Positions 1 through 12,377 of a stretch of 12,453 nucleotides of DNA are shown here, in pieces. Made by a program: the position numbers and the translations under genes. The DNA is from a virus. Location of the stretch: the UHGV virus genome UHGV-0283832, one strand, 5' to 3'. Positions within the stretch are counted from its first letter, which is position 1; each line of letters opens with the position of its first letter. The notes below the pieces were generated by a model. That model searched no databases. It saw nothing but the letters and a program-made list of their open reading frames with translations, and was not told the DNA's origin.

Positions 1-345
1 ACCTGAAAAGGCGTTGCTTCAGGCATAGTAGTCTCCTGAGGTTTTATTAGAATCATTATGTTTGAGCGTAGCGTTGGTAACGCTACCAGGCGCGTGAATG
101 TTACCCCATTTTATGTATGGACATGTAGTGAAAACTACAACTTTGTCGTTCGCTTTGGCATCATCTTCATTATAAAGACGGAATTTTGCATCAGCTTCTC
201 ATCAGGAAAAACAACTAAAAAATCAATCACAATACTTGTGCATTTCTTTAAACAGTTTTTTAAAACTGACTCCGGGTATGGAGCTATGGGTATTTTCTGT
301 CCCCAATGCTTTTAACAGCAATTAATTTCATAGGATGAAAGCTTA

Positions 346-1378: not shown

Positions 1379-1385
1379 GGATTTT

Positions 1386-1399
1386 TGGTCGCACGAGAG
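1386..1399. repeat. Island left junction: degenerate direct repeat of the tRNA-Pro 3' end (att core remnant)
   Basis: TGGTCGCACGAGAG here versus TGGTCGGCACGAGAG at 12301-12315 (1-nt deletion). Homology stops right after CACGAGAG. Confidence 0.55.
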
Positions 1400-1460
1400 T
1401 AGTTTAATTTAGCGTGTAACCGCATGATTTTAATAAATATTATTGATTCAACTTTTAAAC

Positions 1461-1485
1461 CGTATAACCAAACGTATAACTAAAA
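1461..1485. repeat. Integrase arm-type binding-site repeats (CGTATAAC), left arm
   Basis: CGTATAACCAAACGTATAACTAAAA here; nearly the same string CGTATAACTAAACGTATAACTAAAA occurs at ~12146-12170 beside the integrase gene, together with two inverted copies (AGTTATACG). Confidence 0.5.
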
Positions 1486-1626
1486 TAATTTGCTGAAAAA
1501 ATGCACAATTTAAACGGCGATTGCCCTAGCGACTTCCATGATTCTACCTGGATTTTTTTTCGCTCATTCGTTTTTAAGCTGGTGGATGTTCCCCGATATG
1601 GTGATCACCATATCGGGATTTACTCC

Positions 1627-1874
1627 AGGTTAATGTTAACCTCTGCCCTGTTAACATTTTTACCAAAAAGGTAGTTAACATTTTTTGCTCGCAACCAGAT
1701 GAATCATAAAGACAAAATCAACAACAACGCTTCATCAGGCAGTTAACATGTTAACTACTACGAAACGGTAATTTTTTCTCTGCGTGAGAGGGGGCGCGGT
1801 GTCCAGCTTATTCGTTGTTCGTGGCTAACCACTCCCCCCCCATGCCGGATTTTTTTTCCGGTTAACTGTTAATC
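1627..1874. promoter_or_regulatory. Cluster of GTTAAC-containing palindromes and repeats
   Basis: AGGTTAA-TG-TTAACCT palindrome at 1627-1642; GTTAACATTTTT direct repeats at ~1650 and ~1674; perfect 16-bp palindrome AGTTAACATGTTAACT at 1741-1756; GTTAACTGTTAATC at ~1861-1874. Confidence 0.3.
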
Positions 1875-2123
1875 AGGCTGGTGGGTTTTACCTGTTCTGT
1901 AGGAGTGGTCATTATGGCCATCCCTTATATCGTCCGAATGCCGGACGAAGGCACACATCAACCGTAACGAAAATCGTTATGGTTGCCTTGATGGTCTGCG
2001 TGGTCATTATGACCATTCAGACAATGACCTTAATCAGAATTTTTCGCTAAAAAATGACGTTGACCACGTCGTCCGGAAAACACAAAATCCCGTCGATTTT
2101 TAATTAACGGTTAAACCGTCTTT

Positions 2124-2159
2124 TGTCACGGCGTGTCACTGGCTGTCACTCTCCGTCAC
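2124..2159. repeat. Four helically phased direct repeats of TGTCAC at 10-bp spacing
   Basis: TGTCAC at ~2124, 2134 and 2144, and GTCAC at ~2155, giving exact 10-bp periodicity. An ACGGTT-A-AACCGT palindrome lies just upstream at ~2107-2119. Confidence 0.35.
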
Positions 2160-2247
2160 GATTGGGCGTGGTGATTATCACCATTTAGAATCTAAAGGGT
2201 GACGCTTCCGGCCTCCTCAAATTGAGGTTTCCGAAAATATCAACCAG

Positions 2248-2430
2248 TTACCGCCGCAACCGCTCCGGCTTCTTCCAGTGGTACGTTATTTTCTCCTTCT
2301 CCCGATACATCTCAACGCGGCGACGGTAGGCCAGCAACTCAAGAACTCTGGTTCGTATGTTGCGCATATCCACGCCATTAAGCTGGATACCATCACGGCG
2401 GATTAATCCCAGTATTTCGGCTTCTGTCAT
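2248..2430 (-). CDS. Hypothetical small protein (60 aa), basic C-terminus
   Basis: ATG start with a G-rich Shine-Dalgarno (GGGGG about 5 nt upstream). Protein MTEAEILGLIRRDGIQLNGVDMRNIRTRVLELLAYRRRVEMYREKEKITYHWKKPERLRR. It sits directly beyond the cosQ side of cos copy A. No family recognised. Confidence 0.45.
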   Translation of the reverse strand: MTEAEILGLIRRDGIQLNGVDMRNIRTRVLELLAYRRRVEMYREKEKITYHWKKPERLRR

Positions 2431-2458
2431 TGTGCCCCCATCGCTCTGATAGTCTGGT

Positions 2459-2529
2459 GTCGTCGGGTCCTTCCTGGAATTATGGCCCGTTACGGGGCGG
2501 CGACCTCGCGGTTTTTCGCTATTTATGAG
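2459..2529 (+). other. Lambda-type cos site, copy A (cosQ-like, cosN, start of cosB)
   Basis: GGGTCCTTCC...GTTACG|GGGCGGCGACCT|CGCGGTTTTTCGCTATTTATGA. This is near-identical to the phage lambda cohesive-end region as I recall it (right end ...GGGTCCTTTCCGGTGATCCGACAGGTTACG, 12-nt cohesive end GGGCGGCGACCT, left end CGCGGGTTTTCGCTATTTATGAAAA). cosN is at ~2495-2506. Confidence 0.7.
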
Positions 2530-2543
2530 CTTTTTTAGAGGGA

Positions 2544-2701
2544 GGTTGTTGTTTAATTGTTTGTCATATCCATTTGATAACTAAGTAAAAATAAAGAGCA
2601 ATACAACAACCTGATAGTGTTTTTTTGATGCTAAAAATAAAAAAATGCTAATTGAATCAAATAGTTTTAAAAAAATACGTGGTTGTTGTATTGCGTATTT
2701 G
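2544..2701. repeat. cosB-like terminase-binding repeat triad (GGTTGTTGT...) with an A-tract-rich spacer
   Basis: GGTTGTTGTTTAATTG at ~2544; inverted CAATACAACAACC at ~2599-2611; direct GGTTGTTGTATTG at ~2681-2693. A-tract-rich DNA with a weak IHF-like AATCAAatagTTT lies between copies 2 and 3. The layout mirrors lambda cosB (R3-I1-R2-R1), but the repeat sequence differs from lambda R sites. Confidence 0.45.
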
Positions 2702-2723
2702 ATGGCGTAACAGAAAGTGATTT

Positions 2724-3164
2724 TTAACTTTGCTGTTCTGTAACGACTGATTGTTCCATGCTGGCACGGCGAACGCTTACGGCATGACGCCACCCAGCCA
2801 GAAAGCCAGCCATTTTATTTCGTGCCTTGCTCACATCTTCCGGTGAATAGCCGTAAATCTGCAAACCTTCATCAAATCGATGTTCTGTTTCTTCACTGGA
2901 GTACTCGTCACGCTCAGATGAAAGCAGCCTGGCAAACATAATTTTTTCCAGCGCACTGGTTTCTACGTGATATCTGATGGCCTCAAGACGGCTTTTACCT
3001 GAAGACCAAAGCAATGTATGCCCGATGTGATAACCGCCAGACTTTCCGCGATCCGCATTAAGATACGGCATCCCCTGTTTGGTCCATGCGCGAATAGTGG
3101 TTCTGTTAACCTTGAAATGTTCAGCTATTTCCTGCTGACTTACAAAACAAGCTTTATCAATCAT
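2724..3164 (-). CDS. Lambda Nu1-like (terminase small subunit N-terminal HTH) DNA-binding protein; candidate packaging-specificity / helper-packaging redirection factor
   Basis: N-terminus VSQQEIAEHFKVNRTTIRAWTKQGMPYLNADRGKSGG aligns with lambda gpNu1 NKKQLADIFGASIRTIQNWQEQGMPVLRGGGKG. ATG with AAGGT Shine-Dalgarno. At 146 aa it is shorter than Nu1 and no large terminase follows. Cos copy B lies immediately upstream, as cos lies before Nu1 in lambda. Confidence 0.75.
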   Translation of the reverse strand: MIDKACFVSQQEIAEHFKVNRTTIRAWTKQGMPYLNADRGKSGGYHIGHTLLWSSGKSRLEAIRYHVETSALEKIMFARLLSSERDEYSSEETEHRFDEGLQIYGYSPEDVSKARNKMAGFLAGWRHAVSVRRASMEQSVVTEQQS

Positions 3165-3221
3165 AATGTTACCTTAACTGCATGGTTAAATATTAATCAA
3201 GTGGTGGTGGTGTCACCTTCA

Positions 3222-3297
3222 CGGAAAAACGTCATAAATAGCGAAAACCCGCGAGGTCGCCGCCCCGTAACGGGTCCATATGCCGGAAAGGACCCGT
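3222..3297 (-). other. Lambda-type cos site, copy B (inverted relative to copy A)
   Basis: Reverse complement reads ACGGGTCCTTTCCGGCATATGGACCCGTTACG|GGGCGGCGACCT|CGCGGGTTTTCGCTATTTATGA. cosN reverse complement (AGGTCGCCGCCC) is at ~3254-3265. About 65 bp is near-identical to copy A in inverted orientation. Confidence 0.65.
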
Positions 3298-3325
3298 AAA
3301 AAAAGCCGGATTTCTCCGGCCTTAT
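3298..3325 (-). terminator. Rho-independent terminator of the morphogenesis operon
   Basis: On the minus strand: stem GCCGGA / TCCGGC with a 4-nt loop followed by a T-run, immediately after the stop of the 137-aa gene. Confidence 0.6.
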
Positions 3326-3326
3326 G

Positions 3327-3740
3327 TCAGATGGTTTTCAGTATGCGATCGACGTCGCCTTCATCGCCCTGGTTTCTGCCGTCGTATGCCATGCCGGGTG
3401 ATACGGCTTTCGGGCTGTGCATGTCCATAAAGTTTTCAAAGGCTGCGGTAAGCTCCGGCGCAACCTTTGGGCGCTCCTGCTCTATGGTCATGTTCAGGAT
3501 TTCACGAGCATTATCGACGCTAATACATGGCACGTTTGCCATTGCACGTAACAGCGGCTGATAGTCGTTATGTTCATGAAGCGCCATAATCGCATCAGCG
3601 CGCGGCTTGTCCTGCTCTTCCAGTTTGTTGAGTTGATATACGGCCTCGTAGGTTGATAAACCTCTGTCAGCCATTGCCCGCGCTTCTGCTTTAAATTTAC
3701 TCGCCAGCGGTAGCGCCATGATGCTTTCATTCGTTGCCAT
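3327..3740 (-). CDS. Hypothetical acidic protein (137 aa), last gene of the capsid operon
   Basis: ATG with GGGGA Shine-Dalgarno 4-5 nt upstream and natural composition (MATNESIMALPLASKFKAEARAMADRG...). The competing 99-aa ORF 3494-3793 in another frame is R/W-rich and rejected. No family recognised. Confidence 0.6.
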   Translation of the reverse strand: MATNESIMALPLASKFKAEARAMADRGLSTYEAVYQLNKLEEQDKPRADAIMALHEHNDYQPLLRAMANVPCISVDNAREILNMTIEQERPKVAPELTAAFENFMDMHSPKAVSPGMAYDGRNQGDEGDVDRILKTI

Positions 3741-3752
3741 CGTTTCCCCTGC

Positions 3753-4040
3753 TTATCGCGCCAGCGGCTGAACGGATACGCCAGAACCCGCAAAGGCGGC
3801 GCATTTTTTCGCGTCAGTGTCGGCGCTCTCAGGCCAGTTTACGGCGGCGATATTAAATATCCCCGTCTTGTAACACTGTGCTGATTTCTGCTTTGACGTG
3901 TCCACGGGGTACGAGGTCAGATAAACAGCCTTCCCAGATTCCTGACCATCCCACGGCTTAAACTCGCCATTGTCCGCCAGCATCAGCGGCAAAATGTACC
4001 AGCGTCGTGGATACCTGCTGACTGCCTGCAAATAACTCAA
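3753..4040 (-). CDS. Hypothetical protein, start uncertain (TTG at 4040 or ATG at ~3983)
   Basis: ORF fills the gap between the capsid gene and the 137-aa gene. Its stop overlaps the Shine-Dalgarno of the downstream gene, suggesting operon coupling. No convincing Shine-Dalgarno for either start. Confidence 0.35.
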   Translation of the reverse strand: MSYLQAVSRYPRRWYILPLMLADNGEFKPWDGQESGKAVYLTSYPVDTSKQKSAQCYKTGIFNIAAVNWPESADTDAKKCAAFAGSGVSVQPLAR

Positions 4041-4067
4041 TGTATGGAGTGTCCATAGAATCCCCCG

Positions 4068-5123
4068 TTAAGCAATTTTGACGGTAACAAATTTGCGAAT
4101 ATCTGCCGGAACCGGCTGCGGTGCGCTGTGCGTCTGCACGTACTCAATCGCCGGATCGCCGTCCTCAATCCAGTTTTTCGGGTAGTACATGTTTTGCGTT
4201 GCGCCTGTTCTTACCGCTTCCTGATCCATAATCGCACCATAGGCCACCAGCCCTTTGTTGTTGGTGTTGCCCAGGACCAGTAAATCAGGCTCAAGGAAAT
4301 ATTTTTCTGTGCCGTCGCTGTCGGCGTATTTGCCGGCATAGACGATAAGGGCAATATCGCCCAGATAGCCTTTAAAGCTCACCACTTCGCCCAGGTTTTT
4401 ACAGGCCAGTTCTGCGGCGGATTCTGAACCACGGGAAAGATCGTACAGCTCACGGAATTTTTTAAAGCTGCGTAACGTGCGCCATACCTCAACGCCCATA
4501 ATCATGACGTTTGCGGGGCAACCAGCCTGATCAGCATAAAGCTCGATGTCATAGATTGGATCGTGTGTTTCCTTATCTGCCTCTGACCACTTTTTACCCG
4601 GTCCCTGTCTGGCGATATTTTTACTTGGGATCTTCCAGTCGATTTCATAGCGTTCTATGCCTTCGCCCTCAATGATGTTTTTTCCGGTCGTTATCGCATT
4701 CACCGCCAGCCATTCCACGCGCGCTTTAATGGCGTTTATCTGGCGGCGCATGTTGCCAGTAATCAGGCGCATACGGCGGTAGGTAGGGTCGTTAAGCTGT
4801 GCCGGATCTTCTCCAGCCATGCGCATTATTGTTTTTAATGGATCGATTTCGTGTTTTGGCTTCATGTAGCCAGGGCGAATAATGCTGGTTTCGTACCCTT
4901 TATCGCGCTGAACCTGGCTACCAACCATAGGCGAACAAAACGCCGACATAGTGACTTCTTCAATATCCAGGTTATCTAACATGATGTCCTGTGTGTTGAA
5001 TGTCGCCACGTTCGGGAAAAACAGCGCGGTAAACAGCGGACTAAATTTAAATTCCGCAATATCCTCGCGATTCAGGTACGCGAAAAGCTGGTGTGTGTTA
5101 AGTGCCATTGCGTTGACTGCCAT
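4068..5123 (-). CDS. Major capsid protein, lambda gpE-like (HK97 fold)
   Basis: 351 aa with collinear motifs matching lambda gpE across the whole length: FKFSPLF, PGYMKPKHE, EDPAQLNDPTYRRMR, WSEADKETHDP, DIELYA, RSFKKF, RGSESA, KNLGEVVSFKGYLGDIALIVYAGKY, FLEPDLLVLGNT, YPKNWIEDGDPAIEY, QTHSAP. Start overlaps the upstream ORF stop (TAATG). Confidence 0.85.
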   Translation of the reverse strand: MAVNAMALNTHQLFAYLNREDIAEFKFSPLFTALFFPNVATFNTQDIMLDNLDIEEVTMSAFCSPMVGSQVQRDKGYETSIIRPGYMKPKHEIDPLKTIMRMAGEDPAQLNDPTYRRMRLITGNMRRQINAIKARVEWLAVNAITTGKNIIEGEGIERYEIDWKIPSKNIARQGPGKKWSEADKETHDPIYDIELYADQAGCPANVMIMGVEVWRTLRSFKKFRELYDLSRGSESAAELACKNLGEVVSFKGYLGDIALIVYAGKYADSDGTEKYFLEPDLLVLGNTNNKGLVAYGAIMDQEAVRTGATQNMYYPKNWIEDGDPAIEYVQTHSAPQPVPADIRKFVTVKIA

Positions 5124-5329
5124 TATTCACCCCCATGAGTCTGATTTATGCCCAGCGCCGCGCGTAAATAGGAGCGTACCTGCCAGCCTGTTGACGGCTC
5201 AACCATCGCCAGCGGATCAAGTCCTGCCGCAATGCCTGCTTTTACGTTCTGCTGGTGGCGTTCCTTGAGCGCCTTCACGATGTCGGGGCTTATGTACACC
5301 GAAACACCGCCTTTTCTCTCTTCAGCCAT
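5123..5329 (-). CDS. Hypothetical small protein (68 aa), first gene of the capsid operon
   Basis: ATG with AGAGGA Shine-Dalgarno; translationally coupled to the capsid gene. No family recognised; not similar to lambda gpD or Nu3 as far as I can recall. Confidence 0.5.
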   Translation of the reverse strand: MAEERKGGVSVYISPDIVKALKERHQQNVKAGIAAGLDPLAMVEPSTGWQVRSYLRAALGINQTHGGE

Positions 5330-5364
5330 AGTAAGAAATTCCTCTTCGACTTAAAAAATCATAA

Positions 5365-5413
5365 CTGGATGTTCATCCAGCTCTGATTATAATCAGGATT
5401 GCATTTTGTGCAA
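5365..5413 (-). promoter_or_regulatory. Candidate sigma70 promoter with overlapping palindromic operators for the capsid operon
   Basis: Minus strand reads TTGCAC - 16 nt - TATAAT. The -10 lies inside the perfect 14-bp palindrome CTGATTATAATCAG (~5383-5396). CTGGATG-TT-CATCCAG (~5365-5380) lies at about +1, and TTGCA-ttttg-TGCAA at ~5399-5413. Confidence 0.35.
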
Positions 5414-5493
5414 TGATATTGAGTTACATTGCAAATTATGAAATGATTATCCCGATCATGTGTGTCAGTGCACCAAAAAACCTCATATGCAAA

Positions 5494-5531
5494 AGCCCGA
5501 TAAGCCACCTCTGACCTTATCGGGCTTTTTT
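5494..5531. terminator. Stem-loop terminator (10-bp stem GCCCGATAAG / CTTATCGGGC followed by T7)
   Basis: Long perfect stem followed by TTTTTTT on the plus strand and flanked by an A-run on the other side. Probably insulates the capsid promoter from the replication operon. Confidence 0.5.
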
Positions 5532-5537
5532 TGGGCG

Positions 5538-5559
5538 CAAAAAAGCCGGATTGCTCCGG
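5538..5559 (-). terminator. Rho-independent terminator of the replication operon
   Basis: Minus strand: GCCGGA-GCAA-TCCGGC followed by TTTTTT, about 25 nt after the PerC-like stop. Confidence 0.55.
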
Positions 5560-5583
5560 CTGTGTGGTGTGGTTCTGGTATTC

Positions 5584-5832
5584 CTACTCTGCTAATTTGC
5601 TCAGCCCCATGTCTGCGTAAGTGCGATTTACTGCATTTCTCAGGTCTGCATAGTTCTCCGTTGGCGGCTCCGGTGGCCTCTGTGCCTTCCTGGAACATTC
5701 CAGCCGTCGCATCGTAACCTGATGCCGTTCCTTGTCTGTCTCCACCAGTTGCATGACTTCACCCCATCGTGCCGCCGCCCTCCGGTAAAAGCCTTTTGCC
5801 TCTAGTTCCTCCGCTATGCGGTCATGTACCAT
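5584..5832 (-). CDS. PerC-family transcriptional regulator-like protein
   Basis: Taken from the internal ATG (MVHDRIAEELEAKGFYRRAAARWGEVMQ...) with GGTGAGG Shine-Dalgarno. The AE-LE-KG-YRRAA-RW signature resembles PerC/Pch-type regulators. The track ORF extends further 5' to 5952, but that part overlaps the SSB gene. Confidence 0.55.
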   Translation of the reverse strand: MVHDRIAEELEAKGFYRRAAARWGEVMQLVETDKERHQVTMRRLECSRKAQRPPEPPTENYADLRNAVNRTYADMGLSKLAE

Positions 5833-5842
5833 CCTCACCCCC

Positions 5843-6253
5843 TCAGAACGGAATATCATCACCGTAAGGGTCATCGCCTCCCGCTGGTGGCTGATTACCC
5901 TGTGTGCCTGTGGTTTTGCGTCTGTTCCCGCCAGGACGTGCCGCACGGGCACTGATTACGCTGTCTGCAATAACCTGATAACCCTGCCGCGTTTCCCCGT
6001 TCTGTCCGGTCCACTGGCTGACCTGCATCGTGCCGGATACGCTGGCAACGTCGCCTTTTTGATGTTTAGCCAGGAAGTCGGCCTGCTTACCAAATGCGAT
6101 GACCGATAGCCATAACGTCGCCTGCCCATCCTGCGCCTGACTACATGGCAACGATACCGCCATACGCGCCAGCGTCATCGGTGTGCCCTTGCTGGTCTGT
6201 TTTACCTGCGGGTCGTCCACCAGCCGCCCGTAAGCGGCTATCTGTGCTGTCAT
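5843..6253 (-). CDS. ssb: Single-stranded DNA-binding protein (short SSB)
   Basis: OB-fold-like N-terminal region (IAAYGRLVDDPQV...LARMAVSL...LWLSVIAFGKQADFLAKHQKGDVASVSGTMQVSQWTGQNGETRQGYQVIADSV), Gly/Pro-rich linker and the canonical acidic tail ending DDIPF. ATGA overlap with the upstream ORF. Confidence 0.8.
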   Translation of the reverse strand: MTAQIAAYGRLVDDPQVKQTSKGTPMTLARMAVSLPCSQAQDGQATLWLSVIAFGKQADFLAKHQKGDVASVSGTMQVSQWTGQNGETRQGYQVIADSVISARAARPGGNRRKTTGTQGNQPPAGGDDPYGDDIPF

Positions 6254-6528
6254 GATTCCACCTCTCCGGTTTTAACGTTGATGGTTGTTACCTGTTCCGC
6301 TTCGGCAATCTCCCGCTCTGTCAGCGTGGCAAAATTTGCCGCCGTCGTGGTCATGAATGCGCTTATCAGTTCGGGATGTGCTTTCGCGTATCCTTCCCCC
6401 GCGTGGCGGTCTATCGTTCTGATTGCCACCTTTAAAGCGTGCTCTGTCATGTCTAACGCGCGATATTTCGGTTCTGTTCTGTCTCTGCGTTTTTTGAGTG
6501 ATTTATTAAATTTCCCTGAAGTGTGCAT
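6250..6528 (-). CDS. Hypothetical protein (92 aa) between the iteron origin and ssb
   Basis: ATG with a G-rich Shine-Dalgarno about 14 nt upstream; translationally coupled to ssb. No family recognised. Confidence 0.5.
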   Translation of the reverse strand: MHTSGKFNKSLKKRRDRTEPKYRALDMTEHALKVAIRTIDRHAGEGYAKAHPELISAFMTTTAANFATLTEREIAEAEQVTTINVKTGEVES

Positions 6529-6585
6529 ATTTATTTTTACCCCCTCGTTTAAAAAGTTTTGAGTTGTGCCTCCCCTTGTCTACCT

Positions 6586-6806
6586 TATCTACCTTAGTGG
6601 CCCTCATACCAGTAATGGCGCGGCTTTCAGCGGGGTAGAGTGCTTTTATCCACTATCTACCCCGTGTCTACCTCCCTGTCTGATTCAGGTAAAATCAGGT
6701 AGAGAGGGTAGATAGTGGGTAGACAGTAAAAAAAAGCTATCTACCTAACTTAATGCACTGAATTAAATGTATTTTTCTTTACTCAGGTAGACAGGGTAGA
6801 CAGCAA
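6586..6806. repeat. Iteron-type replication origin (GGTAGACAG family repeats plus AT-rich segment)
   Basis: At least 11 copies of GGTAGA(C/T)AG or its complement CT(G/A)TCTACC in both orientations (for example ~6586, 6597, 6634, 6651, 6665, 6697, 6706, 6717, 6738, 6786, 6795), with tandem GGTAGACAGGGTAGACAG at 6786-6803. AT-rich stretch at ~6727-6780 and a DnaA-box-like TTATCCACT at ~6646-6654. Immediately downstream of the primase gene. Confidence 0.75.
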
Positions 6807-6816
6807 TTACAAAAAA

Positions 6817-8571
6817 TTATAAAAACGCGTCGCACTCGTCTGTTGTTATTGCGTTAGTCTGCGTTACCCCCTTAACTTTCCGCGTAATATATTCATGTCC
6901 GTAAACTTTTGCGGCAGGCTTCATAGCCTTTCCAAAGTCATTTACGTTTAGCGGTTTGCTCCTGCCTGCGTATGCCATAAACGCCAGATAGACGCGGTAA
7001 AGGCTGTTCCTGGTCGTGTACTTCACTGAATCGCCACCGCCCCCCATCATCAGGCCGCGCGCTTCCTCCAGAAAATTCAGGAACTGGCAAAACTCAATAA
7101 CCGGATCCGTCTGTTGCTTTATTGCCAGTGCTTCATCACCGTCACGCTGTTCCAGTAGTAAAGCCCGTGCCTTCTCAGGGGCGGTAAAGTTCGCCAGCAA
7201 TCGGCGGATAATGACAGGGATTTCAGCCGCAATCTTTTCCGGTAGCTCCCTGTCTTTTTCGGCCTCACTGACGATATTGTCGAAACGGAAAATTACGCGA
7301 CGACGTGACACACCTCCGGCCCGTTCGGTGAATATCATCGGATTGTTATTGGTTGCCAGCACCACCGCCCTGATTACCGCCGTAAAACGCTTTTCATATT
7401 TCGGGTTAATTTCCACGGGGTCGCCGCCCGTGATTTTCTTGATGCCCGTTCCTTCGCCTGTATATTTCGGCTGGTCAGCCAGGACGATAAGACGACTCCC
7501 GACAACCTGCGCACGTCCACCAGCATCATCAAGCGATGTCATTTCAGCGCTTACCGTGTTCTGTTTCCCTGCCAGAAGGCTGGCTATGTGCGTGAATGTA
7601 CTTTTACCGCTCCCGCCATCTCCGGTGGCCTCAATAAACATCTGCCAGTCGTACCGGTTCGCCATAATCATGTACAGCGCGGCACATATACGCATCATCT
7701 TGCGCGGGTCTTTTCCGGCTGCGTGCTCAAGCCATTTATGAAAGTTTGGCGCGTTATCGCGGATGTTCTCCCCTGGTGCTGGTGGCGTGTACTCAATGCC
7801 GTTGTGCGTGGTGATCCAGCTCTCCGGCGTGTGCGGGGAAAATTCCCCCGTTTTCAGGTCAAGCGCACCATTGGCGAACGGCAGCAAATCGCCGGACGGC
7901 TCGCCCATTGGTTCGGCAATAACTTTTAACGCTTCCACGGCGTTATTGATTACGCGCTTGCTGAAAGTGGCCCTGTGCTCTGAATAGATCGCCACCATTT
8001 CGCGGCTAAGTTCCATTGTGCTGACCGGACACCATACCCCGCCGCGCCATACGTGAACGATTTCACTTTCAGGATGTACGCAAACGCCATCAAAGCGATC
8101 GGCAAGCAGCTGCGCGCGCTCACTGTCCGCCATCTGCGAAAGTTGCGCCTTTTGCTTTACCGGAAGCTCAATGACCAGACCATCAGAAAGATTCTGGCGC
8201 TCACGGGCCAGATATTCGCGCCAGTTCTCCACCTTCTGACCGTGCATACCCTCAGGATAAAAATTTGCATCCTGTACGCCTGCCGCCGCCAGCTTCTGAC
8301 CAATCGCCTTTATCATTACTGGCGCAAGATATCCGGCCCTGAATATGCGCACGGATTTTCTGCCTTCCGGCACAATTTGCAGCTTATCCAGTTCGGATAA
8401 CTGCTGCTCCCCAAGCCACACAGGAGGCTCATTATCTCCGGCCATACGCGCGTCATGTTCCTGCCATTGTTTTGCGTGTGACCAGGCATCACTACCCGCA
8501 AAAATAATGACTTCTGTTTCTTTGTGTTTTATGCCGCGTGACTGCTGTTTTACGTTCGGTGCCAGTTTCAT
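6817..8571 (-). CDS. Replication initiator: P4-family primase / helicase-type NTPase (pri-rep)
   Basis: 584 aa. Walker A GDGGSGKST (encoded at ~7596-7630) with the surrounding FIEATGDGGSGKSTFTHIASLLAG typical of the phage/plasmid P4-family primase C-terminal NTPase domain. An N-terminal ~300 aa domain precedes it. ATGA overlap with the upstream ORF; followed by the iteron array. Confidence 0.85.
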   Translation of the reverse strand: MKLAPNVKQQSRGIKHKETEVIIFAGSDAWSHAKQWQEHDARMAGDNEPPVWLGEQQLSELDKLQIVPEGRKSVRIFRAGYLAPVMIKAIGQKLAAAGVQDANFYPEGMHGQKVENWREYLARERQNLSDGLVIELPVKQKAQLSQMADSERAQLLADRFDGVCVHPESEIVHVWRGGVWCPVSTMELSREMVAIYSEHRATFSKRVINNAVEALKVIAEPMGEPSGDLLPFANGALDLKTGEFSPHTPESWITTHNGIEYTPPAPGENIRDNAPNFHKWLEHAAGKDPRKMMRICAALYMIMANRYDWQMFIEATGDGGSGKSTFTHIASLLAGKQNTVSAEMTSLDDAGGRAQVVGSRLIVLADQPKYTGEGTGIKKITGGDPVEINPKYEKRFTAVIRAVVLATNNNPMIFTERAGGVSRRRVIFRFDNIVSEAEKDRELPEKIAAEIPVIIRRLLANFTAPEKARALLLEQRDGDEALAIKQQTDPVIEFCQFLNFLEEARGLMMGGGGDSVKYTTRNSLYRVYLAFMAYAGRSKPLNVNDFGKAMKPAAKVYGHEYITRKVKGVTQTNAITTDECDAFL

Positions 8572-8855
8572 TTTTTACCCCCTGCGACCAGCATTTCACG
8601 AATTTTGCGGATATGACTTGCTGCACGTTTCTGATTTACGGCTTTACGATGGCCCACCAGCGTGAAATCACGCCGGAACTGATAAACAGGCATCACGCAG
8701 TCATATTCGTAGCCATCACGGCGGTAAGTGATGCGCCGTTCTGCCACGCCTTTTATCGTTACCGTGCCGCCATAGTTATCCCGGAAAATATCGCCGGGGC
8801 GGATTTCAGGCTGAGAGAAGTCACTGGCAGTAAAGCCAGAATTTTTCTTTTTCAT
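8568..8855 (-). CDS. Hypothetical protein (95 aa), translationally coupled to the primase
   Basis: ATG start with AGGAAA upstream; stop overlaps the primase start (ATGA). No family recognised. Confidence 0.55.
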   Translation of the reverse strand: MKKKNSGFTASDFSQPEIRPGDIFRDNYGGTVTIKGVAERRITYRRDGYEYDCVMPVYQFRRDFTLVGHRKAVNQKRAASHIRKIREMLVAGGKK

Positions 8856-8860
8856 GGTTT

Positions 8861-9061
8861 TTATTTTCCTGTCAGTGATTCAAGTTTTATTCCGGCACGA
8901 ATACAGGCCTCAGAAAAAAAAGCCAGAGAACCAACAACCTCATTATTTCTAAGGCGGCATTGTGATTTCACTTTCCCTTTATCGAGAAATATCAAAACGC
9001 GTCCCGTATAATCTGACGGCACATTAAGAACTACAGGTAAGTGCGCTTCATAATTGTGCAT
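8861..9061 (-). CDS. Hypothetical small protein (66 aa)
   Basis: ATG with GGGGG Shine-Dalgarno about 8 nt upstream. Start lies within the last 14 nt of the upstream 69-aa gene and the stop is 5 nt before the next ATG, consistent with a tightly coupled operon. Could still be spurious. Confidence 0.35.
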   Translation of the reverse strand: MHNYEAHLPVVLNVPSDYTGRVLIFLDKGKVKSQCRLRNNEVVGSLAFFSEACIRAGIKLESLTGK

Positions 9062-9257
9062 GGTGCGCCCCCTGACGAATACGGGCGGCGAATACCATCA
9101 CGCAGCCATCAGGAGATTGCTGACGCGCTTCCTGTTCGCTGGTGGCCTCAATGGTAATCACGCGCGGTTGTGCCGTGCTCAGGGCGATAAAACGCCAGAT
9201 GTATTTATTCAGGTTGTACGAGTCCCGCCCTTGCGGGTGTATGGTATAATTTCTCAT
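9048..9257 (-). CDS. Small protein (69 aa), possibly Icd-like (host cell division inhibitor-like)
   Basis: Internal ATG of the long track ORF 9048-10124, with GAGG Shine-Dalgarno 5 nt upstream. Protein MRNYTIHPQGRDSYNLNKYIWRFIALSTAQPRVITIEATSEQEARQQSPDGCVMVFAARIRQGAHHAQL. The Icd-like call rests on a vague memory of similar small proteins in P4-like islands, so it is weak. Confidence 0.4.
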   Translation of the reverse strand: MRNYTIHPQGRDSYNLNKYIWRFIALSTAQPRVITIEATSEQEARQQSPDGCVMVFAARIRQGAHHAQL

Positions 9258-9346
9258 AGCTGCCTCGATAATCTTGCTATCGTTGGTGGTTAGAAGCCCC
9301 GTTACTGCTCCTACAGTGCGGGGTTTCGTCGTTTCTGCACCTTGCA

Positions 9347-9440
9347 TTAACAAGGTGTAAGTAACTTTATTTATAGGTGGCTTACATGTCAATGCTTTTA
9401 TGTAAGACTTTTTATGTGTATATTGTCTTACACTTTCATT
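9347..9440. promoter_or_regulatory. Divergent promoter/operator region between the replication operon and the plus-strand cassette
   Basis: Palindrome CACCTTG-cattaa-CAAGGTG at ~9347-9366; inverted repeat CTTACAT ... ATGTAAG at ~9391-9417 and a further CTTACA copy at ~9436; TATATT -10-like element at ~9429-9434. Confidence 0.35.
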
Positions 9441-9453
9441 GAGAGGATTACAG

Positions 9454-9759
9454 ATGGCTACAGGTTCAAAAAACGCAAAATCACAATCACTGACAGCTCG
9501 GATCCCGCATGATGTTATTGAAGGCATGGAATCCGTAAAACTGGACGGTGAAAGCAACGCCGGATTCATAGTAACCGCCATGCGCGGTGAAATCGCCCGC
9601 CGCCAGGCAGAAGGAAGCGGAGAAAACCCCCTGATTTCTTCGCTCGATGCACTGGCGCAGGTGGAAAAACTCGGAATCAAAGCCGCCGAGGAGATCGGGC
9701 AGCTCGTCACTGTCGCACGTGAAGAACTCCAGCGCCGCAAGACCAAAGAACCAGAGTAA
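9454..9759 (+). CDS. Ribbon-helix-helix-like small DNA-binding protein (101 aa)
   Basis: ATG at 9454 with GAGAGGA Shine-Dalgarno 6 nt upstream (the track ORF starts earlier at a TTG). The N-terminal segment SLTARIPHDVIEGMESVK fits the strand-helix pattern of RHH (CopG/Arc/ParD-like) proteins; the C-terminal half is helical and charged. The RHH call is pattern-based only. Confidence 0.55.
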   Translation: MATGSKNAKSQSLTARIPHDVIEGMESVKLDGESNAGFIVTAMRGEIARRQAEGSGENPLISSLDALAQVEKLGIKAAEEIGQLVTVAREELQRRKTKEPE

Positions 9760-9816
9760 TCACCATCAGCGCCGTGGTGTAAGGTATTACGGCGCATTGC
9801 TATGCAGGACAACACA

Positions 9817-9990
9817 ATGACCGATAAAGAATTGACCAAAACATTATCACCGGCACGGAAAAGACGGCGCAGAAAGATAGAGCATGAATCAGAAAGATTC
9901 GCGCCATGTGCTTTTGCCCTTGAGCAATTCCTTAAAGAATACAGGGAAAAGCGCTCATTGCAGGTATGGCAACGAACTGAACCAGACTGA
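9817..9990 (+). CDS. Hypothetical highly basic mini-protein (57 aa)
   Basis: ATG at 9817 with AGGA Shine-Dalgarno 7 nt upstream (the track ORF starts at an earlier ATG at 9802 that lacks one). Protein MTDKELTKTLSPARKRRRRKIEHESERFAPCAFALEQFLKEYREKRSLQVWQRTEPD. Followed by a plus-strand terminator. Confidence 0.45.
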   Translation: MTDKELTKTLSPARKRRRRKIEHESERFAPCAFALEQFLKEYREKRSLQVWQRTEPD

Positions 9991-10085
9991 TTGCATTGCC
10001 CACCAGCCTGATAGCGGCTATCATCCCCGTGCTTATGTTTGGGATCATATACACATAAGGCGCAGCGGGTTAATTGTTCAGAAAG

Positions 10086-10112
10086 GCGGCTCCATATCGG
10101 GGCCGCTTTTTT
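10086..10112 (+). terminator. Rho-independent terminator of the plus-strand cassette
   Basis: GC-rich stem (GCGGC ... GCCGC) followed by TTTTTT about 100 nt after the 57-aa ORF stop. Confidence 0.5.
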
Positions 10113-10138
10113 CGTGTTTGTCATATCTGTGATACCCG

Positions 10139-10345
10139 TTAAGCAGCCGTTCCGCGTGCTTCCTGTTCGCGTTCTTTCTGCCAGGCCAACACATCATCCT
10201 CATACCATCCGCGACGGCGTAAACCAACGCGAAAACCCTGCGGAAATTCTCCGGCGTTGATCATGCTTTGCAGCGTGCTGTCTGCCTTGATGTGGATAAT
10301 TTTTTTTACTTCCTGGCGAAAGATAATTTTTCTGATTGCTTCCAT
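10139..10345 (-). CDS. alpA: AlpA-family excisionase / transcriptional regulator
   Basis: 68 aa, ATG with AAGGT Shine-Dalgarno. The C-terminal FPQGFRVGLRRRGWYEDDVLAWQ matches the AlpA/Xis-like winged-helix signature (FP-P-KLG-R--GW---E---W). Confidence 0.8.
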   Translation of the reverse strand: MEAIRKIIFRQEVKKIIHIKADSTLQSMINAGEFPQGFRVGLRRRGWYEDDVLAWQKEREQEARGTAA

Positions 10346-10363
10346 CGTGATTTACCTTGTGAA

Positions 10364-10448
10364 TCCGGTGTATTCCGGTGACAAATACGGTAAATCATCG
10401 GATATGGGTAAAAACAGTTCCCACCGTTTTTAAACGGTATACACCGTT
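10364..10448 (-). promoter_or_regulatory. alpA leader/promoter with CACCGGA direct repeats and ACCGTTT/AAACGGT palindromes
   Basis: On the sense strand, two CACCGGA(A/T) repeats 10 bp apart lie immediately upstream of the alpA Shine-Dalgarno (~10364-10380). Overlapping palindromes ACCGTTT-TT-AAACGGT-ATAC-ACCGTTT lie at ~10423-10448. Confidence 0.35.
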
Positions 10449-10475
10449 TTTATATTGATGATTTGAAATGGAATT

Positions 10476-10500
10476 ATAAAAAAAGCGGCATTTCTGCCGC
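10476..10500 (-). terminator. Rho-independent terminator after the 83-aa ORF
   Basis: Minus strand: GCGGCA-GAAA-TGCCGC followed by a run of T (plus-strand A-run at ~10475-10484). Confidence 0.6.
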
Positions 10501-10511
10501 TTCCAGGATTG

Positions 10512-10763
10512 TTACCGCCATTTTTTGGGCCTGCCTCCGATCTTCATAGATGCCGGACGTACGACCTTATCAATACTTACCGCCAGATTTCTGGAAGCGC
10601 CACGGGATACCAGAAAATCTACTACCTGTTTTTTTGATGGGGCCGTCGTTCTGTCCTCCGGATCGTAGGTTGACCAAAATTCATGCTGAACCATCAGGGC
10701 CAGTTGCAGCCCGTCGCAATTGCATCTGATATTTTTTTGCATCTTAACGGTTTCATGTTTCAC
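10512..10763 (-). CDS. Hypothetical small protein between int and alpA (83 aa from GTG, or 76 aa from the ATG at 10742)
   Basis: Track start is GTG; an in-frame ATG follows 7 codons later. C-terminus KIGGRPKKWR resembles an AT-hook-like GRP motif. Neither start has a strong Shine-Dalgarno. No family recognised. Confidence 0.45.
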   Translation of the reverse strand: MKHETVKMQKNIRCNCDGLQLALMVQHEFWSTYDPEDRTTAPSKKQVVDFLVSRGASRNLAVSIDKVVRPASMKIGGRPKKWR

Positions 10764-10840
10764 GGCCTTGTCGTTAAATTTGATGCAATTATACGACGGT
10801 TTTACATGGTTTTCGTAGTTTTTACTGGTTTTCTGTACAG

Positions 10841-12082
10841 CTACACGGCTCGGATACCCCTTTTACCACTGGCGAGGGTTACGCCCGTCGCCGCAGCCTC
10901 GACAAATTCGCCCCACCAGCGCATCAGCACGATGCGTTTTTCTATGTAGTTGCTCCGGTTGTATGCCCGTCTAACTTCGTTGGTGTCGACGTGGGCAAGT
11001 GCCGCCTCTATTACGTCCGGCTCGAATCCTTCCTCGTTCGCTGCTGTGCTGAATATGGCGCGTAATCCATGAGACACCAGCACGCCAGCGAATCCCATAC
11101 GCCGCAATGCTGCGTTAGCTGTCTGGCTGTTCATCGGCTGCTGTGGGTCTTTCAGACTTGGGAAAACGTAATTGCGGTGGTGGCTGATTGGTTTCATGGC
11201 CTCCAGCACCGCCATAGCCTGACCGGAAAGCGGGATAACGTGATCCCTGCGCATCTTCATGCGTCCGGCAGGTATCGTACATTGCTTCGCGTCCAGGTTG
11301 ATTTCATCCCACCGCGTTGATGACGCTTCGGCGGGACGGGTTACGGTCAGTAACTGCCATTCAATCAGTAATCTGGTCTGCCGTTCTGTTGCCGATACTG
11401 ATAAAGCCTGCATAAGCTCCGGCAGCTGTTCGGGGCGGATTGTTGGCATATGTTTTTTTACAGGTGAGGGAAACGCCTTACGCACATTCATAGCCGGATT
11501 GGCATCAATCAGCCCACTGTTGGCGGCGTAATCCATTACCTCATTAACGCGCTGTAAAACCCGCTTGAGTGTTTCCAGGTTGCCGCGCTCCTTGATGGGT
11601 GTAAGCACTTCAACGAACCTTCGGGCGGTGAGGGTATCTATTGGCGTGTTGCCGATGAACGGGAATACATATTTATCCAGCGAACGCCAGATGTCTTTAA
11701 TCGTGTTGGGGGCCAGATTCTGGCTGATTTTCACCTGGTACCATGCCGCCGCCACATTTTCGAACGTGTTCCCTTGTCTTCGGGCCTCTGTCTCTCTTTT
11801 TTGCCTCTCGTGGTCCTGCGGGTCAGTTCCGGCACTGATTAACGTCCTGTACTCGCTACGGCGTTTTCTGGCATCAGCCAGGGAAACATCTTCAAGCGAT
11901 CCAAAACTCAGCAATATTCTTTTTTTGTCCGATGGTCGGTAGTAGGAAAATCTCCAGAGTTTTGATCCAGACGGTTTGACCAGGAGAAAAAGCCCTCCGC
12001 CGTCCTGCAGGGTGTACTCCTTTTGCGCTGGTCTGGCTGCTTTGATCTGCACTGTGGTTAATGGGTGTGTTTTTCTCGCCAT
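10841..12082 (-). CDS. int: Tyrosine recombinase / integrase, P4-type (with N-terminal arm-binding domain)
   Basis: Track ORF starts at a GTG (12100); the likely start is the ATG 6 codons in (MARKTHPLTTVQIKAARPAQKEYTLQDGGGLFLLVKPSGSKLWRFSYY...), a typical N-terminus for P4-like integrases. Length ~413 aa. Sits adjacent to the tRNA 3' end and arm-type repeats. Confidence 0.9.
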   Translation of the reverse strand: MARKTHPLTTVQIKAARPAQKEYTLQDGGGLFLLVKPSGSKLWRFSYYRPSDKKRILLSFGSLEDVSLADARKRRSEYRTLISAGTDPQDHERQKRETEARRQGNTFENVAAAWYQVKISQNLAPNTIKDIWRSLDKYVFPFIGNTPIDTLTARRFVEVLTPIKERGNLETLKRVLQRVNEVMDYAANSGLIDANPAMNVRKAFPSPVKKHMPTIRPEQLPELMQALSVSATERQTRLLIEWQLLTVTRPAEASSTRWDEINLDAKQCTIPAGRMKMRRDHVIPLSGQAMAVLEAMKPISHHRNYVFPSLKDPQQPMNSQTANAALRRMGFAGVLVSHGLRAIFSTAANEEGFEPDVIEAALAHVDTNEVRRAYNRSNYIEKRIVLMRWWGEFVEAAATGVTLASGKRGIRAV

Positions 12083-12117
12083 ATGTCTATGATTCCACAC
12101 GAAAAAACAGGGGTTTA

Positions 12118-12170
12118 GTTATACGGCTTTAGTTATACGTCAGCCCGTATAACTAAACGTATAACTAAAA
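12118..12170. repeat. Integrase arm-type binding sites (right arm)
   Basis: Two AGTTATACG copies (~12118, ~12131) followed by two inverted CGTATAACTAAA copies (~12146, ~12158). The same 9-mers occur at 1461-1485 in the left arm. Confidence 0.5.
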
Positions 12171-12294
12171 AATCCGGCTGATAGCTTATAAATCCGGTGA
12201 TGTTCGGTGACTAAAAAACATAAAAAAACCCGCCAATCAAGTGATTAGCGGGTTATCCCTGTCTTATCCGGTGCTTTCCGGTGATATCCGGTGG
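12171..12294. repeat. Phased TCCGGTG(A) direct repeats next to the att core (candidate excisionase/AlpA sites)
   Basis: Six copies: ~12171 (variant TCCGGCTGA), ~12193, ~12203 (variant TTCGGTGA), ~12266, ~12277 and ~12287, mostly at 10-11 bp spacing. The same heptamer occurs twice in the alpA leader (~10364-10380). Confidence 0.45.
12222..12254 (-). terminator. Island-supplied terminator downstream of the tRNA
   Basis: Near-palindromic hairpin AACCCGCCAATCAAGTGATTAGCGGGTT preceded on the plus strand by AAAAAAA (a T-run on the minus strand), about 45 nt downstream of the tRNA 3' end. Confidence 0.5.
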
Positions 12295-12300
12295 GCGATT

Positions 12301-12377
12301 TGGTCGGCACGAGAGGATTTGAACCTCCGACCCCCGACACCCCATGACGGTGCGCTACCAGGCTGCGCTACGTGCCG
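12301..12377 (-). tRNA. proL: tRNA-Pro (anticodon GGG)
   Basis: Reverse complement reads CGGCACGTAGCGCAGCCTGGTAGCGCACCGTCATGGGGTGTCGGGGGTCGGAGGTTCAAATCCTCTCGTGCCGACCA: 77 nt, cloverleaf-compatible, anticodon loop T-GGG-GT, encoded CCA. It matches the E. coli proL-type tRNA as I recall it. Confidence 0.9.

What the first reader, a model, noticed from the sequence alone, without database searches (positions are those of the whole stretch)
12171..12294. Phased CACCGGA/TCCGGTG repeats shared by the att-proximal region and the alpA leader
Six copies at ~10-bp spacing lie between the arm-type sites and the att core, and two more lie just upstream of the alpA Shine-Dalgarno (10364-10380). Shared repeats at an att arm and at the excisionase gene itself suggest that one protein, most simply AlpA, both directs excision and autoregulates.
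Basis: inference. Interest (0 to 1): 0.4.

Follow-up and report, generated by a model that had tools for sequence, protein, structure and literature searches.

The report
AlpA-type operator repeats of a phage satellite
A 7-base motif repeated once per DNA helical turn, next to the integration site and in front of the alpA gene of an E. coli phage satellite, is most likely where the satellite's small AlpA protein binds to drive excision and control its own gene; this arrangement is already known from phages 186, P2 and P4.

Summary
TCCGGTG (CACCGGA in the int/alpA reading direction) occurs 9 times in the window against 1.3 expected. Pairs spaced exactly 10 bp occur only in the int-proximal att arm and just upstream of alpA (4 pairs against 0.13 expected).

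The "six" att copies are 4 exact, 1 with one mismatch and 1 with two mismatches. They form two groups of three, separated by 64 bp that hold an island-supplied terminator for tRNA-Pro.

The window is an E. coli PICI-type phage satellite at proL. Its backbone is close to that of the prototype EcCICFT073, but it has a different int/alpA module.

The same layout recurs in two other modules, EcCICFT073 and a cspD/clpS-site island, each with its own motif at exact 10-bp spacing in the att arms and upstream of alpA. An E. albertii island with an equally similar integrase but a more diverged AlpA lacks TCCGGTG at both places.

The best explanation is therefore an array of AlpA (excisionase/regulator) binding sites. 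Binding itself, the direction of autoregulation and any effect on int are untested. This is a new member of a known kind, and of moderate interest.

The parts
12267..12293 (-). Core-proximal triplet of heptamer repeats (TCCGGTG at 12267, 12277 and 12287; CACCGGA in the gene direction). It abuts the att core and lies in the 3' trailer of tRNA-Pro.
   Evidence: Exact copies at exactly 10-bp spacing. Kept in L004-L006. Reduced to two degenerate copies (ACCGATG, TCCGATA) in the QML lineage.
12171..12209 (-). Int-proximal group of repeats: 12171 TCCGGCT (degenerate), 12193 TCCGGTG and 12203 TTCGGTG. It sits next to the arm-type sites and may overlap a weak int promoter (TAGTCA-17-TATAAG, my own reading of the sequence).
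   Evidence: The block AAAAAATCCGG is invariant across lineages. The promoter assignment is inference only; the scan did not report it.
10364..10380 (-). alpA-leader pair of repeats (TCCGGTG at 10364 and 10374), ending 5 nt upstream of the Shine-Dalgarno.
   Evidence: Conserved in 23 leaders, of 8 distinct sequences among the IMG/VR loci. The second copy is CGCCGGA in the QML lineage. One island (L006) has three copies.
10139..10345 (-). alpA: a 68-aa AlpA/Xis-type winged-helix protein, the proposed binder.
   Evidence: PHROG 66 and 2790 'excisionase and transcriptional regulator', E 5.5e-7 and 3e-6. Pfam Phage_AlpA 17.6 bits, below the 21-bit cut-off. hhalign to the EcCICFT073 AlpA family 96.2%, E 2.6e-9. 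Best PDB match 8c3t_A 'AlpA family phage regulatory protein', E 0.09, full length.
10841..12082 (-). int: a P4-type tyrosine integrase with an N-terminal arm-binding domain.
   Evidence: Pfam Phage_integrase, Phage_int_M and Arm-DNA-bind_3.
12115..12168 (.). Four Int arm-type sites (TTAGTTATACG): two direct and two inverted.
   Evidence: Two more copies lie in the far arm at 1461-1483. They are conserved in the E. albertii island, which lacks TCCGGTG.
12227..12254 (-). Island-supplied intrinsic terminator for proL. It splits the repeat array.
   Evidence: 12-bp stem plus a U-run, -31 kcal/mol, z = -3.8. Compensatory stem changes in the QML lineage. The native proL terminator is displaced to 1345-1378.
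12296..12318 (.). att core at the tRNA/int-proximal junction, overlapping the 3' end of tRNA-Pro(GGG) (12301-12377, minus strand).
   Evidence: Empty-site genomes match only from 12299 onward. Three-way alignment with an empty site and the far junction. tRNA.
1381..1398 (.). att core copy at the far junction, one G shorter than the tRNA copy.
1461..1483 (.). Far-arm pair of Int arm-type sites. There is no TCCGGTG here.
10512..10742 (-). ORF76: a small basic protein ending in GGRPKKW, encoded between int and alpA. It is the rival candidate binder.
   Evidence: No Pfam, NCBIfam or PHROG match. Present only in proL islands that carry the motif (72% identical between lineages). Absent from EcCICFT073, the class C island and E. 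albertii.

Best explanation
The repeats are the binding sites of the satellite's AlpA protein, a small winged-helix recombination directionality factor that also regulates transcription.

**Shown**
- A 7-bp motif occurs in head-to-tail copies exactly one helical turn apart, at only two places: the int-proximal att arm and the alpA leader.
- The island is an EcCICFT073-like PICI at proL.
- Its AlpA is homologous to EcCICFT073 AlpA.
- The same site layout recurs, with other motifs, in islands that carry other AlpA alleles.

**Inferred**
- AlpA monomers bind cooperatively, head to tail, on the phased copies.
- At the junction, the triplet beside the core and the group beside the four Int arm-type sites lie about 6 helical turns apart, on the same face of the helix. 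Together they bend the arm so that arm-bound Int can reach the core and build the excisive complex, and they disfavour re-integration.
- The pair in front of alpA lets AlpA set its own level and, with it, the level of the leftward operon that alpA heads.
- The direction of that control is open. In EcCICFT073 it is positive. Here the pair lies at about -20 to -4 of the only conserved promoter-like element (TTTACC-16-TACACC), or inside a 5' leader. That position fits repression or a spacer-binding type of activation better than classical activation.
- The int-proximal pair may also touch the int promoter.
For: - **Enrichment and phasing:**
- **Unbiased 7-mer test:** CACCGGA is the only 7-mer present at least twice in both regulatory regions (hypergeometric 1e-7, about 6e-4 after correction).
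- **Conservation:** kept in diverged proL islands, with changes in whole 10-bp units (3 leader copies in L006; 2 instead of 3 core copies in the QML lineage).
- **Natural swap:** the E. albertii island has Int 82% identical and the same arm-type sites, but AlpA only 63% identical. It has no TCCGGTG at either place, and instead CGTT-type copies at 10-bp spacing in its arm.
- **EcCICFT073:** [GA][ACG]ACAA forms 9 phased pairs against 0.10 expected, all in the two att arms or the int-alpA spacer.
- **Class C island:** CGAAC forms 6 phased pairs against 0.03 expected, in the same places.
- **Classes B versus C:** identical Int arm sites and Int 78% identical, but AlpA only 59% identical and different phased motifs.
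- **Protein family:**
- **Literature:**
  - RDF sites are direct repeats one helical turn apart, and 186 Apl uses them both at att and at pR-pL (PMC7498355).
  - KplE1 attL carries five cooperative TorI sites (PMC3509656).
Against: - There is no physical binding data, and I found no paper that maps AlpA sites in any PICI.
- The Pfam Phage_AlpA score is below the curated cut-off (17.6 against 21 bits).
- The AlphaFold model was too poor to use (pLDDT 57).
- In the E. albertii island the arm repeats are not repeated near alpA, so the shared-site rule is not universal.
- The motifs of classes B and C share a GAAC core, so that comparison separates AlpA from Int only weakly.
- ORF76 co-occurs perfectly with the motif within the proL lineage.
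- The far arm of this island has no copy, unlike classes B and C.
Confidence: 0.68

Rival explanations
1. The phased heptamers are arm-type sites of the integrase N-terminal domain, so Int rather than AlpA would occupy the alpA leader. The TTAGTTATACG repeats would then be bound by something else, possibly AlpA.
For: - Integrase arm sites can also be tandem at about 10-bp spacing (lambda P'1-P'3, from my own knowledge).
- Int has an Arm-DNA-bind_3 domain.
- In classes B and C the phased repeats occur in both arms.
- The HE-PICI paper leaves open which protein binds its doubled motif (PMC10111431).
Against: - TTAGTTATACG occurs on both arms in direct and inverted orientation, and stays the same in the E. 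albertii island whose Int is 82% identical. TCCGGTG is lost there.
- Classes B and C share identical doubled sites and Int at 78% identity, but differ in the phased motif.
- TCCGGTG is absent from the far arm of this island.
Confidence: 0.1
2. The 60-76 aa basic protein encoded between int and alpA (ORF76, 10512-10742) binds the heptamers.
For: It is present in every proL island that carries the motif (72% identical between lineages) and absent from the E. albertii island, which lacks the motif. Its C-terminal GGRPKKW looks like a DNA-binding tail (my reading).
Against: - It has no homologue in EcCICFT073 or the class C island, which show the same repeat layout.
- It matches no family.
- One island (L185) has it frameshifted.
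- A GRP-type tail would favour AT-rich minor grooves, not CACCGGA (my own knowledge).
Confidence: 0.08
3. The repeats are recognised by a helper-phage or host factor, for example the unknown phage-encoded inducer of alpA.
For: alpA transcription in EcCICFT073 and EcCIMP1 needs an induced helper phage, and the inducer is unidentified (PMC6092414, PMC11773190).
Against: The motif differs between islands that share helper-type backbones and live in the same host species, and it tracks the int/alpA module. A conserved palindromic block further upstream (10412-10451) is a better candidate for such a factor.
Confidence: 0.08
4. The repeats are tandem duplications produced by slippage and have no function.
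For: Copy number changes by whole 10-bp units.
Against: - The spacers between copies differ while the heptamer is kept.
- The same motif lies at two sites 1.8 kb apart.
- Positions are conserved at about 80% flanking identity.
- The same layout appears in unrelated modules.
Confidence: 0.03

Closest known systems
Bacteriophage 186 Apl and P2 Cox (dual-purpose RDF and transcription regulators)
   Same: A small DNA-binding protein recognises short direct repeats one helical turn apart, both at the attachment site and at a promoter region (PMC7498355 abstract for Apl; Cox from my own knowledge).
   Different: Apl and Cox sit at a lysis-lysogeny switch between divergent or convergent promoters and act as repressors. 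Here the second site set is in front of the RDF gene itself in a satellite without a known repressor, and AlpA of the related EcCICFT073 is an activator. No sequence relationship to Apl or Cox was tested.
Satellite phage P4 Vis
   Same: Vis is an AlpA-family protein. It is reported to bind two boxes between int and the attP core, to be needed for excision, and to regulate promoters, including a negative effect on Pint (Cali et al. 2004, Virology; recalled from memory and cited as ref. 45 in PMC6092414). This window likewise has two groups of sites between int and the core.
   Different: PICI AlpA alleles are only remotely related to Vis (PMC6092414). Vis boxes were not compared here. A Vis site in front of vis itself is not something I can confirm.
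EcCICFT073 AlpA (prototype Gram-negative PICI)
   Same: Same island backbone: several identical small proteins, a 584-aa primase, capsid and decoration genes. Homologous AlpA. Same site layout with 10-bp phasing. Genetics: positive autoregulation, required for induction, and over-expression gives excision and replication (PMC6092414).
   Different: It has a different integrase, att site (roxA/phoQ intergenic) and AlpA allele, and a different motif ([GA][ACG]ACAA). Its copies lie in both arms, with six extra copies after int. Its alpA-proximal pair lies about 50-60 nt from the start codon, against 18 nt here.
KplE1 (CPS-53) TorI/IntS module at argW
   Same: The tRNA- and int-proximal junction carries several (five) cooperative RDF sites next to Int arm sites (PMC3509656).
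   Different: The TorI gene lies at the other end of the prophage. Its known extra role is protein-protein inhibition of TorR, not autoregulation through shared DNA sites.

Membership tests
RDF (excisionase) binding-site array of a tyrosine-integrase element | Short direct repeats spaced about one helical turn apart | tested here: met
   Exact 10-bp spacing within groups; the gaps between groups are 22 and 64 bp.
RDF (excisionase) binding-site array of a tyrosine-integrase element | Located in an att arm between the core and the integrase arm-type sites | tested here: met
   Core mapped with empty-site genomes. Arm-type sites.
RDF (excisionase) binding-site array of a tyrosine-integrase element | The element encodes a small winged-helix RDF | tested here: inconclusive
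   PHROG 66/2790 E about 1e-6 and hhalign 96% to EcCICFT073 AlpA. However, Pfam Phage_AlpA is below its cut-off and the fold model was unusable.
RDF (excisionase) binding-site array of a tyrosine-integrase element | The RDF physically binds the repeats and is required for excision | not testable with these tools
   Needs EMSA or footprinting and excision assays.
Dual-function RDF/regulator systems (186 Apl, P2 Cox, P4 Vis type) | The same recognition repeats at att and at a promoter or leader region | tested here: met
   CACCGGA is the only 7-mer present at least twice in both regions. Phased pairs occur only there.
Dual-function RDF/regulator systems (186 Apl, P2 Cox, P4 Vis type) | Transcription of the adjacent promoter responds to the RDF | not testable with these tools
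   Shown only for the homologous EcCICFT073 AlpA (PMC6092414). No clear sigma-70 promoter was found here.
Gram-negative PICI (EcCICFT073 type) | int-alpA-primase order, transcribed in one direction, about 10-15 kb, own att site, phage-like packaging genes but no full phage | tested here: met
   Island of about 10.9 kb (1381-12318). Gene order and shared proteins with EcCICFT073.
Gram-negative PICI (EcCICFT073 type) | Induction and transfer by a helper phage | not testable with these tools
   Needs an experiment.
Pseudomonas aeruginosa AlpA (Q-like antiterminator) | A protein of at least 142 residues (contact residues numbered up to H142) with an N-terminal segment that enters the RNA exit channel and a C-terminal HTH, and a single binding element between -35 and -10 | tested here: not met
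   The window protein has 68 aa and belongs to the excisionase family. The Pseudomonas protein is described in PMC9371919. The two share a name only.

The most novel reading that the evidence does not exclude
The most novel reading has two parts.

1. AlpA acts from an unusual position. The leader pair lies within or just downstream of the core promoter, only 5 nt from the Shine-Dalgarno. AlpA would then switch alpA on from the promoter spacer or the leader, which would be a new mode for an excisionase-family protein.

2. The core-proximal triplet lies inside the transcribed 3' trailer of proL. This could couple satellite excision to transcription or termination of a host tRNA gene, or let bound AlpA interfere with tRNA-Pro expression.
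Probability: 0.1. Interest if true: 0.65.

Novelty: new member of a known kind. Interest (0 to 1): 0.35.

Why it matters
AlpA is the master switch of Gram-negative PICI satellites, yet I found no report of where it binds.

The repeats give concrete candidate operators for this proL island. By the same rule they give candidates for the experimentally tractable EcCICFT073: GACACAA at L134 7456 and 7466, six copies at 7185-7235, and copies in both arms.

If confirmed, they would explain how one 68-aa protein couples excision to expression of the satellite operon. They would also allow AlpA specificity to be predicted from sequence, and could help annotate satellite boundaries.

The island is present in the probiotic strain Nissle 1917, in ATCC 25922 and in about 300-450 other complete E. 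coli genomes.

Tried and rejected
- **Wide search for AlpA relatives.** The word-indexed protein search returned only close E. coli relatives. The genome-contig scan gave 4 loci. Of these, only the E. albertii island was informative; of the three distant MAG loci I inspected only L010, which showed no comparable architecture, and L011 and L012 were only ORF-scanned.
- **Motif scan of IMG/VR.** Scanning for TCCGGTG-N3-TCCGGTG gave 120 loci, but only members of this same island lineage encode an AlpA homologue. The rest look like chance.
- **tblastn of AlpA against phage records:** no match.
- **Structure prediction.** The allowed shallow alignment gave pLDDT 57, so I ran no fold search.
- **Promoter scan.** It found no sigma-70-like site on the gene strand for alpA or int. 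My promoter readings are by eye and weak.
- **P. aeruginosa AlpA.** I considered and rejected a link to this antiterminator: it is a different, larger, Q-like protein.
- **E. albertii shared motif.** I looked for a motif shared between its att arm and its alpA leader and found only AT-rich k-mers.

Full report
**1. What the window is**

The last 2.35 kb is 99.9% identical to E. coli Nissle 1917, ATCC 25922 and about 300 other complete genomes. The middle of the window differs from the Nissle copy by roughly 700 bp of small genes.

tRNA-Pro(GGG), proL, lies at 12301-12377 on the minus strand. Genomes without the island match only from 12299 onward. A three-way alignment with an empty site gives a shared core, ATTTGGTCG(G)CACGAGAG, at 12296-12318 and at 1381-1398. 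The island is therefore about 10.9 kb.

All its main genes are on the minus strand:
- int, 10841-12082, with Phage_integrase, Phage_int_M and Arm-DNA-bind_3 domains
- a small ORF, 10512-10742
- alpA, 10139-10345
- Icd-like and DUF4222 genes
- a 584-aa primase
- SSB, major capsid, head decoration and small terminase genes

The backbone is that of the prototype Gram-negative PICI EcCICFT073, which I located at NC_004431.1 1377930-1388654. Several small proteins are identical between the two. The int/alpA module and the insertion site are different.

**2. The observation**

TCCGGTG is over-represented (9 copies against 1.33 expected). Its phased form is confined to two places:
- 12193/12203 and 12267/12277/12287 in the int-proximal att arm
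- 10364/10374 in front of alpA

TCCGGTG-N3-TCCGGTG with at most one mismatch gives 4 matches against 0.00 in shuffles. A looser scan (9-11 bp spacing, at most 1 mismatch per copy) gives 4 against 0.13 and none elsewhere. In an unbiased comparison of the two regulatory regions with the rest of the island, CACCGGA is the only 7-mer present at least twice in both (p = 1e-7).

The sixth copy at 12171 (TCCGGCT) is degenerate, but it sits in a block, AAAAAATCCGG, that is invariant across lineages.

That gap carries a strong terminator on the tRNA strand. The island has displaced the native proL terminator to its far end (1345-1378) and supplies a replacement. The core-proximal triplet therefore lies in the tRNA's 3' trailer.

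All spacings are near whole helical turns, so the copies face one side of the helix.

**3. Other sites in the arm**

TTAGTTATACG occurs four times (two direct, two inverted) between the repeats and the int start, and twice in the far arm. This two-arm, mixed-orientation pattern is what is expected of integrase arm-type sites. TCCGGTG is absent from the far arm.

**4. Conservation**

- Window-type islands keep the repeats at both places (L004-L006).
- A lineage with about 80% non-coding identity (L003, L007, L008) has Int 82% and AlpA 76% identical. It keeps the leader pair (ATCCGGCG, TTCCGGTG) and the positions of the arm copies. The arm copies have degenerate sequences (ACCGATG, TCCGATA) and there is one 10-bp unit fewer.
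- L006 has three leader copies.
- Fifteen IMG/VR leaders, of 8 distinct sequences, all keep the pair.
- The terminator shows compensatory stem changes.

**5. Natural swap**

An E. albertii island at proL has Int 82% identical, the same as the lineage above, and the same arm-type sites. Its AlpA is only 63% identical.
- It has no TCCGGTG in the arm or near alpA.
- Its arm instead carries CGTT-type copies at exact 10-bp spacing, one before and four after its own terminator.

The heptamer therefore follows the AlpA clade rather than the integrase. This island has no shared motif near alpA, so the shared-site rule is not universal.

**6. The same design in other modules**

| Module | Motif | att arm copies | int-alpA spacer copies | Phased pairs (observed / expected) |
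|---|---|---|---|---|
| EcCICFT073 (L134) | [GA][ACG]ACAA | 5841/5851; 17060/17070/17080 | six at 7185-7235; pair at 7456/7466 | 9 / 0.10 |
| Class C island, cspD/clpS site (L212) | CGAAC | 12641/12651; 12714/12724/12734; 23556/23566/23576 | 14305/14315 | 6 / 0.03 |

In both, all copies within a group are exactly 10 bp apart and every phased pair lies in the att arms or the int-alpA spacer. The EcCICFT073 junction was mapped with empty sites.

The layout is the same in both and in the window: core, then 2-3 copies, then a 43-64 bp gap, then 2-3 copies, then the doubled Int arm sites, then int.

Classes B and C share identical doubled arm sites and Int at 78% identity. Their AlpA is only 59% identical and their phased motifs differ.

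**7. The protein**

- The 68-aa product matches PHROGs 66 and 2790 ('excisionase and transcriptional regulator'), the same families that EcCICFT073 AlpA matches.
- Profile-profile comparison of the two AlpA groups gives 96% probability, E 2.6e-9.
- The Pfam Phage_AlpA score is below its cut-off.
- The best PDB match is an 'AlpA family phage regulatory protein', at E 0.09.
- The AlphaFold model was poor and I did not use it.

**8. Literature**

- EcCICFT073 AlpA activates its own promoter, does not affect Pint, is required for induction, and on over-expression causes excision and replication (PMC6092414).
- EcCIMP1 AlpA is also a positive autoregulator (PMC11773190).
- A PICMI AlpA acts as an excisionase without transcriptional effects (PMC10803314).
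- RDF sites are direct repeats one helical turn apart, and 186 Apl uses them at att and at pR-pL (PMC7498355).
- KplE1 attL has five cooperative TorI sites (PMC3509656).
- P4 Vis binding two boxes between int and the attP core is recalled from memory.
- I found no paper that maps AlpA sites in a PICI.

**9. Mechanism and open points**

The most likely reading is cooperative AlpA binding to the phased copies. At the junction this would shape the arm for excision. At alpA it would provide feedback on the leftward operon.

The direction of that feedback is not settled. The pair ends 5 nt before the Shine-Dalgarno, so it must overlap the core promoter or lie in the leader. The only conserved promoter-like element is TTTACC-16-TACACC, which I read by eye; the scan did not find it.

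A conserved palindromic block at 10412-10451 is a separate candidate operator.

Rival explanations, all less likely, are Int arm sites, ORF76 (which co-occurs with the motif within the proL lineage), a helper or host factor, and slippage.

**10. Verdict**

The feature is real and correctly interpreted. It belongs to the known class of dual-purpose RDF operator arrays. The added value is the cross-island design rule and the concrete candidate AlpA sites for PICIs.

Noticed in passing
window 10412-10451: A conserved palindromic block lies upstream of the alpA repeats: AAACGGTGTATACCGTTT followed by AAAAACGGTGGGAACTGTTTTT on the gene strand. It is better conserved between lineages than its flanks. 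It may be an operator for another factor, for example the helper-phage inducer of alpA, or an RNA hairpin.
   Followed up: partly
window 12227-12254 and 1345-1378: The island displaces the native proL terminator to its far end and supplies its own between the two repeat groups. The stem changes are compensatory in a diverged lineage, and the E. albertii proL island does the same.
   Followed up: yes
window 10512-10742: A small basic ORF (76 aa as annotated, about 60 aa conserved) ending in GGRPKKW matches no family. It is restricted to proL-type islands and is frameshifted in one IMG/VR copy, L185.
   Followed up: partly
L006 3707-3760; L003/L007/L008 att arms: Repeat copy number changes by whole 10-bp units: three leader copies in strain STEC2017-197, and two instead of three core-proximal copies in the QML lineage.
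   Followed up: yes
window 1381-1398 against 12299-12318: The far-junction core copy lacks one G relative to the tRNA copy (TGGTCGCACGAGAG against TGGTCGGCACGAGAG). Whether this affects excision is unknown.
   Followed up: partly
window 1905-2184 and 1591-1616: Three copies of a palindromic 17-mer, GTGGTCATTATGGCCAT (repeat family D4), and a 26-bp perfect palindrome, CCCGATATGGTGATCACCATATCGGG, lie near the far end. Similar sequences occur at the same place in EcCICFT073 and the class C island. They are possibly packaging or replication signals.
   Followed up: no
window 3299-3320, 5539-5560, 10479-10500: Three related terminator-like hairpins (AAAAAAGCCGGATTTCTCCGGC family, read on the minus strand) punctuate the leftward operon.
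   Followed up: no
window 5667-5683, 7619-7635, 9136-9152: A 17-nt family, TC(T/G)C(C/T)GGTGGCCTC.., accounts for two of the three isolated TCCGGTG copies inside genes. Its meaning is unknown and it may be chance.
   Followed up: no
L009 3712-3755 and 3805-3870: The E. albertii island has four 11-bp GGAGCCAATTT repeats and three CCCATTATTTAAA repeats between int and alpA, followed by a good sigma-70-like promoter. This is a different regulatory region from the window's.
   Followed up: no
window about 8570-9050 against L001: The window is not identical to Nissle 1917 throughout. About 700 bp of small genes between the DUF4222 gene and the Icd-like gene present in Nissle are missing from the window (coordinate offsets).
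   Followed up: no
window 1-1280: The left flank is the yejO autotransporter pseudogene region of the chromosome.
   Followed up: no
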